Positions 28,757-30,613 of a DNA stretch of 30,661 nucleotides are shown in pieces (position 1 is the stretch's first letter; each line of letters opens with the position of its first letter). The stretch covers positions 1 to 30,661 of the forward strand of contig JAHFIE010000001.1 in assembly GCA_023246565.1 (NCBI GenBank), given 5' to 3'. This stretch comes from Candidatus Magasanikiibacteriota bacterium (GTDB lineage: Bacteria; Patescibacteriota; Patescibacteriia; Magasanikbacterales; UBA922). The position numbers were made by a program, and so were the translations under genes. Below the pieces are notes generated by a model that was given only the letters and a program-made list of their open reading frames with translations, was not told the origin of the DNA and ran no database searches.

Positions 28757-29836
28757 CTAGGCTATATGAAAATATACAACATCGCCATCAGAAACAATGT
28801 ATTCTTTGCCTTCCAAACGCATTTTGCCACTCTCTTTTACACCAACCCAGCCATTACAAGCCACAAAATCTTCCCAGTTTGTGACATCAGCTTTGACATA
28901 TCCCTTAATAAAATCAGTATGAATAACTCCGGCTGCTTCCGGACCTTTGGTTCCACGTTTTACAGTCCATGCCCTGGTTTCAGGTTCTCCCGATGTTAAA
29001 AAAGTAACTAAATCCAATAATTTATAACCAGCTCGAATAATTTTGTCTAGACCACTCTCTACAATTCCTAAATCTTTCATATACTCCATCGCTTCACTTG
29101 GTGATAAATCAGCTAATTCAGCTTCTAAACGGGCACAGACATACACGTTGGGGATTCCAGGCTCAACTATAGTACCCTGTTCCTTATTATCTTTTATTTG
29201 CTCATCAACATTAACCACATACATCATCGGCTTCATGGTCAGAAGGTGGAGATCCCGGATTAGCAGCCTTTCATCCTCGTTATAATCCAAAGAACGGGCA
29301 GGCAAACCAGCCTCAAGGTGTTTATATACTTTTTCACACAAAGTTAATTGTGGTTCAAATTCCTTGACCATTACCCCTTTTGCTGATTTGCGGAGAGTTT
29401 CCAGACGTTTGGTAACGGTTTCTAAATCTGCAAGAACAAGTTCAAGATTAATAATATCTGCGTCTTCCTTAGGGTTAACACGATTATGAACATGAATGAT
29501 ATTATTATCCGCAAAAGAACGTACAATATGAGCAATCGCATCAACTTCACGAATATGTGATAAAAATTTGTTGCCCAAGCCCTCACCTTGCGAAGCGCCC
29601 TTTACTAAACCCGCAATGTCTACAAATTCAATTGCTGTTGGTATAATTTTGAGTGATTTTGATACTGCTGCTAATTTTTCTAGACGATTATCCGGTACTT
29701 GAACAATACCAACATTGGGTTCAATAGTACAAAAAGGATAATTTTGCGCTTCAGCCTGCTTACTTCGTGTTAGCGCATTGAAAAGAGTCGATTTTCCGAC
29801 ATTGGGAAGACCGACAATACCAATTTTAAGTGACAT
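28757..29836 (-). CDS. ychF: Obg-family ribosome-binding ATPase YchF
   Basis: [59 protein letters not shown]. Confidence 0.97.
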
Positions 29837-29838
29837 AA

Positions 29839-29912
29839 TGGTGGACCCACCGAGAGTCGAACTCGGGACTCATCCATGCCATGGATGCGTGTTACCACTA
29901 TACTATGGGCCC
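29839..29912 (-). tRNA. tRNA-Ala(GGC)
   Basis: gggccca/tgggtcc acceptor with G3:U70, A73, encoded CCA; anticodon loop atggcat (A32-U38). Confidence 0.92.
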
Positions 29913-29998: not shown

Positions 29999-30027
29999 TT
30001 GACAAAAAAAATATTAAGAAGTACTAT
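29999..30027 (+). promoter_or_regulatory. Sigma70 promoter of the riboswitch leader
   Basis: TTGACA-17-TACTAT. Confidence 0.7.
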
Positions 30028-30052
30028 TATTTTAGTTCATTTAAAAATTCAA

Positions 30053-30180
30053 TTATCAAGAAGAGACGAGGGATTTGGCCCGCTGACTCTCTACCAACCT
30101 ACTTGCCGAAAATTTTCTGAAATATTCAGAATGAATAAAGGTGTAAGGTGGTAACTCCAACCCAGACCAGGGAAAGATGC
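30053..30180 (+). ncRNA. SAM-I (S-box) riboswitch aptamer
   Basis: TTATCAAGAAGAG..GAGGGATTTGGCCC..TGA..CAACC..[long P3]..GGTG..AACTCC..GAAAGATG follows the SAM-I consensus order. Confidence 0.85.
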
Positions 30181-30216
30181 GTCCTAAGGCTTAATAGCCA
30201 AAGGAAATTATGTATT

Positions 30217-30246
30217 TCTTATCCTTGTTATGGGTAAGATTTTTTT
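30217..30246 (+). terminator. Riboswitch expression-platform terminator
   Basis: tcttatcc-ttgttat-gggtaaga (8 bp, one G-U) followed by T7. Confidence 0.75.
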
Positions 30247-30328
30247 GTTTTAGTTGTCTAGAGCAAAGAAATCTTACCCGTGCAGCACGGGTTGGCGTAA
30301 CCTTCATCCACGAAAGGAAAATCATATC

Positions 30329-30559
30329 ATGAAAAAGGGTATTTGTATTACGACTAGCCTCGGGAAGAGGCGTCAGTTCGATCTGGCCTGCGACGATGCA
30401 AGTGCTCCGGTCGTTCAGCCACACCGAGACGTCTACTTCTCCCTGTCTCCGTCTTGGCGCATCCTCTTCAATTCCCTCTCACAAAGGGAACGCGAGACCT
30501 TTGTGTACCTCCACCCAGCACGACGTCAGGCATTCATCTCCAGCCGCTTCTCTTCTTGA
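30329..30559 (+). CDS. GC-richer 76-aa protein of unknown function downstream of the SAM-I riboswitch
   Basis: AAAGGA RBS, ATG 30329, MKKGICITTSLG...SSRFSS. Confidence 0.6.
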   Translation: MKKGICITTSLGKRRQFDLACDDASAPVVQPHRDVYFSLSPSWRILFNSLSQRERETFVYLHPARRQAFISSRFSS

Positions 30560-30560
30560 C

Positions 30561-30613
30561 GACCAAGGGGCGATCGAGTCAGGCTCAACAAGCCATGATT
30601 CTCGCTCCTGGTC
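30561..30613. repeat. Long bulged GC-rich hairpin directly after the stop codon
   Basis: gacca/tggtc, ggggcga/tcgctcc, gagtc/gattc and ggct/agcc nested pairings. Confidence 0.7.

What the first reader, a model, noticed from the sequence alone, without database searches (positions are those of the whole stretch)
30053..30559. SAM-I riboswitch controlling a 76-aa orphan ORF
Seen: full SAM-I core. The usual GGCAACC...GGUGCC pairing is replaced by ACCAACC...GGUGGU, a double compensatory change. P3 is enlarged with an extra ttctgaa-ata-ttcagaa hairpin. A terminator is at 30217-30246, and the 3' P1 region ggaaaga (30171-30177) can pair with tctt(a)tcc as an antiterminator. Established: SAM-I regulates Met/SAM/sulfur genes such as metK. 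The first gene here has no recognisable motif and is GC-richer, so it is either a new SAM-related protein or a cassette captured behind the switch.
Basis: partly seen in the sequence, partly recalled or inferred. Interest (0 to 1): 0.65.

Follow-up and report, generated by a model that had tools for sequence, protein, structure and literature searches.

The report
SAM riboswitch gating a small protein
A genuine SAM-sensing RNA switch in an ultrasmall (Magasanikbacteria, CPR) bacterium turns off a 76-residue protein that is not an orphan: it belongs to a rare, undescribed small-protein family that sits behind this type of switch wherever its upstream DNA could be read, so it is probably part of the response to SAM shortage.

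Summary
Rfam RF00162 (SAM-I) matches 30050-30183 at 50.6 bits (cut-off 44.4).
- the ACCAACC/GGUGGU compensatory pairs;
- the extra 7-bp hairpin in P3;
- the terminator at 30217-30246;
- the antiterminator pairing.

The ORF (30329-30559, 76 aa) is a real gene. It has a Shine-Dalgarno site, pN below pS, GC3 above GC2, and no excess RNA structure.

It belongs to a family of about a dozen small proteins with the core motif EP[FWYH]RS.YL.LS.E.Q..[FYW]D.LS[PQ]..R. No Pfam, PDB or fold match was found. All ten members with enough upstream DNA carry a SAM-I aptamer, in differing genomic contexts.

The family is confined to one Magasanikbacteria family: 5 of 240 genomes of the order. It is patchy even within the window's genus. 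metK lies elsewhere in this genome and has no riboswitch.

In related genera the same leader drives unrelated GC-rich genes, including pre-ATP-grasp proteins and metK. A conserved 25-bp hairpin (30229-30282) joins the terminator's 3' half to a downstream complement.

The protein's function is unknown. This scan has already noted similar SAM-I plus orphan-gene units in other Patescibacteria genomes.

The parts
29999..30027 (+). Sigma-70-like promoter: TTGACA, 17-nt spacer, TACTAT
   Evidence: 10 of 12 consensus matches. It lies 22 nt upstream of the aptamer and points away from tRNA-Ala and ychF.
30050..30183 (+). SAM-I (S-box) aptamer with a 4-bp P1 and a 37-nt insertion in P3
   Evidence: RF00162, 50.6 bits (gathering score 44.4), E 5.6e-9; the only copy in the genome.
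30093..30153 (+). Base of P3: ACCAACC (30093-30099) paired with GGUGGU (30148-30153). Two base pairs are changed on both sides relative to the consensus.
   Evidence: alignment. C-G in 10 of 11 related aptamers, G-C in one.
30115..30131 (+). Extra 7-bp hairpin inside the P3 loop
   Evidence: Read from the sequence and predicted in the fold.
30168..30227 (+). Antiterminator: the 3' strand of P1 and J4/1 pair with the 5' half of the terminator
   Evidence: minimum-energy fold of 30160-30345.
30217..30246 (+). Intrinsic terminator: 8-bp stem, 7-nt loop, seven U
30229..30282 (+). 25-bp hairpin: the terminator's 3' half and U tract pair with a downstream complement. It can form only in read-through RNA.
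   Evidence: z = -6.0; across 10 loci, 90% of cells are paired against about 50% for slid controls; 8 pairs change on both sides; 0 of 500 shuffles reach the observed values.
30276..30292 (+). Small GC hairpin ACCCGUG-CAG-CACGGGU. It overlaps the 3' strand of the long hairpin, so the two are mutually exclusive.
   Evidence: listed on the minus strand. Relatives have an equivalent hairpin with changed stem bases.
30313..30319 (+). Shine-Dalgarno-like AAAGGAA about 10 nt before the ATG
   Evidence: Relatives have GGAG/AGGAG 6-8 nt before their starts.
30329..30559 (+). Gene for a 76-aa protein: disordered N-terminus and a helical C-terminal domain. It is a member of an undescribed family linked to SAM-I.
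   Evidence: family; GC by codon position; pN below pS; no excess RNA structure; AF2 model.
30561..30613 (+). GC-rich 3' hairpin directly after the stop codon, followed by a weak U-rich tail
   Evidence: z = -4.05. Relatives have GC-rich hairpins or terminators in the same place.

Best explanation
**What the unit is.** Positions 29999-30613 form a self-contained transcription unit that SAM represses. A sigma-70-type promoter fires into a SAM-I aptamer.

**SAM abundant.** The 4-bp P1 closes, the terminator at 30217-30246 forms, and transcription stops before the gene.

**SAM scarce.** The 3' strand of P1 pairs with the 5' half of the terminator (the antiterminator), and the polymerase reads through. 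The freed 3' half of the terminator and its U tract then zip up with a downstream complement into a 25-bp hairpin. The single gene at 30329-30559 is translated.

**The product.** It is a real 76-residue cytoplasmic protein with about 30 disordered residues followed by four short helices. It belongs to an undescribed small-protein family restricted to Magasanikbacteria. Because that family is found behind SAM-I wherever upstream DNA is available, it is most likely a factor made specifically under SAM or methionine shortage.

**Shown versus inferred.**
- Shown here: the aptamer match, the alternative pairings, the coding signals, and the gene-switch linkage.
- Inferred from established S-box biology: the OFF-switch logic.
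- Inferred only: the biochemical role. My best guess is a small adaptor that binds a partner protein or nucleic acid to spare or restore SAM.
- Speculative: the long hairpin as an RNase III processing or stabilising site.
For: **Aptamer and expression platform**
- RF00162 at 50.6 bits, above the 44.4 cut-off.
- Promoter and terminator.
- Antiterminator and 25-bp hairpin in the minimum-energy fold, z -6.0.
- Hairpin conserved with compensatory changes in 10 loci.

**The ORF is a real gene**
- The amino-acid motif is conserved across highly diverged DNA.
- A profile search of 1.84 billion representative proteins finds 11 small relatives.
- pN is below pS in every pair.
- GC3 exceeds GC2 in all members.
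- All members have Shine-Dalgarno sites.
- The ORF RNA has no excess structure, z -0.29.

**Linkage to the switch**
- SAM-I lies upstream of the window gene and of its relatives in G003, G071, G089, G101, L068, L069, L070, L071 and L074. That is 10 of 10 with at least about 190 nt of upstream DNA; nine score over the gathering cut-off, and G003 scores 37.5 bits because of an insertion in P2.
- A further member, on contig L072, starts inside the homologous terminator.
- The contexts differ: ychF-tRNA; GT2 plus an RRM protein; a PIN operon; an antiporter.

**Other points**
- metK is on contig C12 without a riboswitch.
- One member has an N-terminal transmembrane helix followed by RKRR, which places the conserved domain in the cytoplasm.
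- RNase III is encoded in this genome.
Against: - Ligand binding and termination have not been tested experimentally.
- P1 is only 4 bp.
- The protein matches no family, solved structure or fold, so its link to SAM rests on gene-switch association alone.
- The window's copy is the most divergent member. Its motif is partly degenerate and its GC3 is lowest, at 0.61.
- The same leader type carries unrelated cargo in other genera, so being behind the switch does not by itself show a role in SAM metabolism.
- The contig ends 102 nt after the stop codon. rmuC and rpsT, which lie downstream in relatives, are missing from this assembly, so co-transcribed genes cannot be excluded in this genome.
Confidence: 0.8

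Rival explanations
1. Captured cassette. The SAM-I leader marks a variable expression slot in Magasanikbacteria, into which compositionally foreign mini-genes are swapped. On this reading the 76-aa gene is simply the current occupant and has no SAM-specific role.
For: - In the same family of genomes, each genome with SAM-I has a single copy, and it precedes unrelated genes. These include pre-ATP-grasp proteins (G058, G060, G066, G093), metK (G068), a MetE-like fusion (G096), and unique ORFs of 60-310 aa.
- The cargo is GC-rich (0.55-0.68) in genomes of about 0.36-0.45 GC.
- G004, a complete genome of the same genus, has ychF-tRNA, a 1.1-kb spacer, then rmuC-rpsT, with no switch and no ORF.
- Leader conservation stops right after the palindromic hairpins.
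Against: - The small-protein family is found behind SAM-I in several different genomic contexts, so the association follows the gene and not the locus.
- No integrase or mobile-element gene was seen next to the unit.
- No phage relatives were found.
Confidence: 0.2
2. The ORF is spurious. The GC-rich stretch would then be a non-coding or structured RNA, or the real regulated gene would lie beyond the contig end.
For: - The stretch is GC-rich in an AT-rich genome.
- The contig ends 102 nt after the stop codon.
- The hairpin after the ORF in the window lacks a strong U tract.
Against: - The peptide motif is conserved while the nucleotides have diverged.
- pN is below pS in every pair.
- GC3 exceeds GC1 and GC2.
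- Strong Shine-Dalgarno sites are present.
- Folding z is -0.29.
- No Rfam hit falls in the region.
- In G101, L067, L069 and L070 a terminator directly follows the small ORF.
Confidence: 0.04
3. A trigger that senses SAM depletion. A fall in SAM, for example from a phage SAM-degrading enzyme or loss of the host cell, would switch on a small toxic or defensive effector.
For: Only circumstantial: patchy, accessory distribution; variable cargo in the same slot; foreign composition.
Against: - No PADLOC or PHROGs hit for this protein or the alternative cargos.
- No toxin-like features were seen.
- metK and MetE-like genes behind the same leader type point to ordinary SAM homeostasis.
Confidence: 0.06

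Closest known systems
SAM-I / S-box riboswitch (Rfam RF00162), for example the Bacillus subtilis metK, yitJ and metE leaders and the Thermoanaerobacter tengcongensis metF aptamer
   Same: - Full four-helix aptamer, scoring above the curated threshold.
- Conserved core sequence blocks.
- Terminator and antiterminator expression platform, which gives an OFF switch.
- Relatives of this leader in sister families sit directly before metK.
   Different: - P1 is only 4 bp.
- Two P3 base pairs are flipped (A-U and C-G).
- P3 carries a 37-nt insertion with its own hairpin.
- A conserved 25-bp hairpin links the terminator's 3' half to a downstream complement.
- The regulated gene is an uncharacterised small protein, not a methionine, cysteine or SAM enzyme or transporter.
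LSPEQR-type helical repeat proteins: DUF3106 (PF11304) and the LTXXQ/CpxP-Spy family (PF07813)
   Same: Tandem short helices carrying an L-S/T-x-E-Q-R-x-x-aromatic unit. Large repeat proteins of this type turn up as weak hits to the family profile.
   Different: No member of the family reaches Pfam significance (best E 0.22). The known families are periplasmic, whereas the topology of the membrane-anchored member argues that this domain is cytoplasmic. The resemblance is at motif level only.
Earlier notes of this scan on SAM-I riboswitches before orphan, GC-rich small genes in Patescibacteria and Magasanikbacteria
   Same: Same organism group. A genuine SAM-I with a terminator stands before a fast-evolving, GC-rich small gene, and related species carry different cargo in the same slot.
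   Different: No sequence look-alike of this ORF or of a relative was in the index. Here the cargo is a defined family with complete switch linkage, and a conserved long hairpin in the platform is described.

Membership tests
SAM-I riboswitch (RF00162) | Covariance-model score at or above the curated gathering score | tested here: met
   50.6 bits against 44.4, E 5.6e-9, model positions 1-108.
SAM-I riboswitch (RF00162) | Four helices P1-P4 around a junction, with canonical pairing | tested here: met
   The Infernal alignment pairs P2, P3 and P4. P1 is reduced to 4 bp (UAUC/GAUG), with non-canonical flags at its outer positions. P1, the base of P3, and P4 are kept in 11 related leaders.
SAM-I riboswitch (RF00162) | Conserved core nucleotides: AUC-AGA, GAGGGA...GGCCC...UGA, CAACC, GGUG, and the tandem A-U/U-A pairs of P1 that face the sulfonium | tested here: met
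   All are present in the alignment to the consensus. That these residues contact SAM comes from the published structures and is recalled, not tested here.
SAM-I riboswitch (RF00162) | Binds SAM selectively | not testable with these tools
   Needs in-line probing, ITC or equilibrium dialysis.
SAM-I riboswitch (RF00162) | Expression platform in which P1 formation and an antiterminator are mutually exclusive | tested here: met
   Terminator at 30217-30246. The antiterminator pairs 30168-30185 with 30202-30227.
Undescribed SAM-I-linked small-protein family (this report) | Profile match and the core motif EP[FWYH]RS.YL.LS.E.Q..[FYW]D.LS[PQ]..R | tested here: met
   The window ORF scores E 6.9e-21 against the 12-member profile, which includes it. 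It shares 19-32% identity with other members. Its motif is partly degenerate (QPHRDVYFSLSPSWRILFNSLSQRER).
Undescribed SAM-I-linked small-protein family (this report) | A SAM-I leader directly upstream on the same strand | tested here: met
   10 of 10 members with enough upstream DNA.
DUF3106 (PF11304) and LTXXQ (PF07813) | Pfam profile match at or above the gathering score | tested here: not met
   LTXXQ matches only one of the 12 members (best E 0.22), and DUF3106 does not match the family itself.
Known anti-phage defence or phage protein families | Match to PADLOC or PHROGs profiles | tested here: not met
   No hits. No tblastn hit in 50,697 phage records.

The most novel reading that the evidence does not exclude
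The SAM-I leader, its conserved palindromic junction (the 25-bp hairpin plus the small GC hairpin) and the GC-rich 3' hairpins together define a riboswitch-gated expression slot in Magasanikbacteria. Foreign mini-genes would be exchanged in this slot, a functional analogue of an integron expression site but gated by SAM. The small-protein family would be its commonest cargo and a new effector of the SAM-starvation or SAM-depletion response, possibly including a response to SAM loss during phage attack.
Probability: 0.1. Interest if true: 0.75.

Novelty: new variant of a known kind. Interest (0 to 1): 0.45.

Why it matters
Genes that follow a riboswitch are among the few unknown genes for which the physiological signal is known in advance.

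This case adds an undescribed small-protein family to the SAM regulon of ultrasmall, host-dependent bacteria. These bacteria cannot make methionine and must manage SAM tightly. The family is therefore a concrete target for learning how they cope with SAM shortage.

The conserved 25-bp hairpin also suggests an extra, untested layer in the expression platform of a textbook riboswitch, such as RNA processing, stabilisation, or locking of the ON state.

The effect is limited. The family is rare and narrowly distributed, and similar riboswitch-plus-orphan units have already been noted by this scan.

Tried and rejected
**Function and fold of the protein**
- Word-index homologue search with the 76-aa ORF: no candidates.
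- Pfam on the ORF and on all 12 family members: nothing significant.
- PDB sequence profile: best hit is OphA peptide N-methyltransferase at E 0.03 over 16 residues, treated as chance.
- AF2 model (pLDDT 74) against Foldseek PDB: no hit with E at or below 0.001.
- Same model against the ESM Atlas: TM at or below 0.34.
- Same model with VIA-align wide: best Z 3.0.
- Atlas look-up of P0006: TM below 0.5, uninformative.
- PADLOC, PHROGs and phage tblastn: no hits.

**Finding more members**
- The search for related loci with the 5-member alignment failed because no stretch was conserved enough.
- With a tighter alignment it found only the G071 record (Candidatus Magasanikbacteria GW2011_GWA2_56_11) in genomes, and three metagenome loci.

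**What lies beyond the contig end**
- Homologues of rmuC and rpsT, which are downstream in relatives, are absent from the own assembly.

**Literature**
- Searches on SAM riboswitches in CPR, Patescibacteria and Magasanikbacteria returned nothing relevant. The one paper opened mentions riboswitches only as engineering tools.

**Other**
- RNAalifold on the aptamers mis-predicts P2 and adds little covariation because the sequences are highly conserved.
- The large multi-repeat proteins among the profile hits (P0005 and others) were judged to be motif-level look-alikes, not relatives.
- I did not run complex prediction. No binding claim is made, and a pass would not have been decisive.

Full report
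**Observation**

The window is a complete 30,661-bp contig (C84) of a 954-kb, 87-contig genome with GC 0.40. A cmscan of the whole window finds RF00162 (SAM-I) at 30050-30183 on the plus strand. It scores 50.6 bits against a gathering score of 44.4, E 5.6e-9, covers the whole model, and has a 37-nt insertion in the P3 loop. It is the only SAM-I match in the genome.

- ACCAACC (30093-30099) pairs with GGUGGU (30148-30153). This turns the consensus g-c and G-C pairs into A-U and C-G with no mispair flag. Ten of 11 related aptamers share the C-G and one keeps G-C.
- The P3 insertion contains a perfect 7-bp hairpin at 30115-30131.
- A TTGACA-17-TACTAT promoter lies at 29999-30027.
- An 8-bp terminator stem followed by seven T lies at 30217-30246.

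P1 is short, at 4 bp.

**An extra element in the platform**

The same fold shows a 25-bp hairpin at 30229-30282. In it the terminator's 3' half, its U tract and the following GUUUUAG pair with a downstream complement (z -6.0).

The hairpin's 3' strand overlaps a small GC hairpin at 30276-30292. This means the two cannot form together.

The arrangement recurs in ten related leaders. There, 90% of cells are paired against about 50% in slid controls, eight pairs change on both sides, and none of 500 shuffles reaches the observed values. The sequences are related, so the shuffle counts are not probabilities.

The hairpin can form only in read-through RNA. Its role is not established. RNase III is encoded in the genome, so processing is feasible, but that is only an inference.

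**The ORF is a real gene and not an orphan**

The ORF is 30329-30559, with AAAGGAA about 10 nt upstream of the ATG.

Searching relatives for RF00162 found a weaker aptamer in the same-genus genome G003 (37.5 bits, with an insertion in P2). It is followed by the same terminator and hairpins and by a 70-aa ORF.

Three-way and five-way protein alignments revealed a shared core. A six-frame profile search of the family's genomes added G071, G089 and G101.

An exhaustive hmmsearch of 1.84 billion representative proteins returned 11 small proteins of 64-87 aa with the core motif EP[FWYH]RS.YL.LS.E.Q..[FYW]D.LS[PQ]..R. It also returned large repeat proteins, which I take to be motif-level look-alikes.

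Coding signals:
- pN is below pS in every pair.
- GC3 is 0.61-0.84, above GC2 at 0.40-0.58.
- All members have strong Shine-Dalgarno sites.
- The window ORF shows no excess RNA structure, z -0.29.

AlphaFold2 with the 12-member alignment gives about 30 disordered residues and then four short helices at 32-74, with pLDDT about 87 in the helical part. No Pfam, PDB-sequence, Foldseek, Atlas or VIA match is meaningful.

One member has an N-terminal transmembrane helix followed by RKRR. By the positive-inside rule this places the conserved domain in the cytoplasm.

**Linkage to the switch**

Every member with enough upstream DNA has a SAM-I aptamer on the same strand: the window, G003, G071, G089, G101, L068, L069, L070, L071 and L074. 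A further member, on the truncated contig L072, begins inside the homologous terminator and hairpin. One member (P0028) had no DNA available.

The neighbours differ:
- ychF-tRNA here and in G003;
- a glycosyltransferase plus an RRM protein;
- a PIN-containing operon;
- a cation antiporter.

The association therefore follows the gene and not one locus. In several relatives a terminator-like hairpin follows the small ORF directly. The window has a GC-rich hairpin at 30561-30613 (z -4.05), but only a weak U tail follows it.

**Taxonomy and distribution**

G071 is Candidatus Magasanikbacteria bacterium GW2011_GWA2_56_11, which fixes the clade.

The protein family occurs in 5 of 240 species genomes of the order, in four genera, all within one family. 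It is patchy within the window's genus. G004, which is 100% complete, has ychF-tRNA, about 1.1 kb of AT-rich spacer, then rmuC-rpsT, with neither the switch nor the ORF.

**What SAM-I controls in this clade**

Eighteen of 107 genomes in the family have a single SAM-I. The genes behind it are:
- this small-protein family (five genomes);
- metK (G068);
- pre-ATP-grasp proteins (G058, G060, G066, G093);
- an NTP-transferase fused to a MetE-like domain (G096);
- several unique GC-rich ORFs.

In sister families of the order the riboswitch sits directly before metK. In the window's genome metK is on contig C12 and has no riboswitch.

This variety keeps the 'cassette slot' reading alive as a partial rival. 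No integrase, phage relative or defence-family match was found.

**Mechanism**

The OFF-switch logic follows from established S-box biology and from the mutually exclusive helices shown here. SAM closes P1, the terminator forms, and transcription stops. The protein is therefore made when SAM is scarce.

Its biochemical role is unknown. My best guess is a small cytoplasmic helical adaptor in the SAM-shortage response, and I hold that guess with low confidence.

**Comparison and novelty**

The RNA is a member of SAM-I. Its clade-specific features are a short P1, flipped P3 pairs, the P3 insertion and the extra long hairpin. The protein family is not described in Pfam or in the literature searched.

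This scan has already recorded similar SAM-I plus orphan small-gene units in other Patescibacteria genomes, although none shares sequence with this ORF.

**Verdict**

The finding is of moderate interest.

Noticed in passing
L086 (G096, minus strand), about 130-250 nt after its SAM-I aptamer: After the SAM-I terminator comes a mini-ORF that encodes MMMAMMMSFKRRPD. Its 3' part is complementary to the 5' arm of a second terminator. A 443-aa (contig-truncated) NTP-transferase fused to a MetE-like (Meth_synt_2) domain follows. This looks like a SAM riboswitch in tandem with a Met-codon leader-peptide attenuator.
   Followed up: partly
L046 (G058), L094 (G066), L099 (G060), L089 (G093): GC-rich proteins of about 256-440 aa with a Pre-ATP-grasp domain recur directly behind the same type of SAM-I leader in four genera. 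The best score is 36.2 bits against a cut-off of 27.5. They are a second uncharacterised member of the SAM regulon.
   Followed up: partly
L019 (G034), L020 (G025) and L048 (G122): In sister families a conserved protein of 265-270 aa with no Pfam match follows a SAM-I aptamer that has a P2 insertion. In G122 the leader scores best as SAM-I/IV (RF01725, 45.6 bits). It precedes a 310-aa protein with a weak hit to the C-terminal domain of SAM hydroxide adenosyltransferase, E 0.0034.
   Followed up: partly
window 30561-30613: A GC-rich hairpin starts 2 nt after the stop codon (z -4.05). AAGGGG in its 5' arm could alternatively pair with CCCCCUU just downstream. Earlier notes of this scan describe pseudoknot-capped terminators after GC-rich accessory genes in Magasanikbacteria. 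I did not test whether this is one of them.
   Followed up: partly
L082 (G004, same genus), between tRNA and rmuC: The syntenic site in a complete same-genus genome holds about 1.1 kb of AT-rich non-coding DNA with a long inverted repeat (gaattttaaatatatgaaaatat ... atattttcatatatttaaaattc) in place of the riboswitch unit.
   Followed up: no
own genome G000: rmuC and rpsT lie downstream of this locus in relatives but have no tblastn match in the own assembly, which is 93.8% complete. The region beyond the contig end is probably unassembled.
   Followed up: partly
window 29836-29912 (minus strand): tRNA-Ala(GGC) at 29842-29912 lies only 5 nt upstream of the ychF start at 29836 on the same strand. 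The ychF-tRNA pair is conserved next to the riboswitch in several genera.
   Followed up: no
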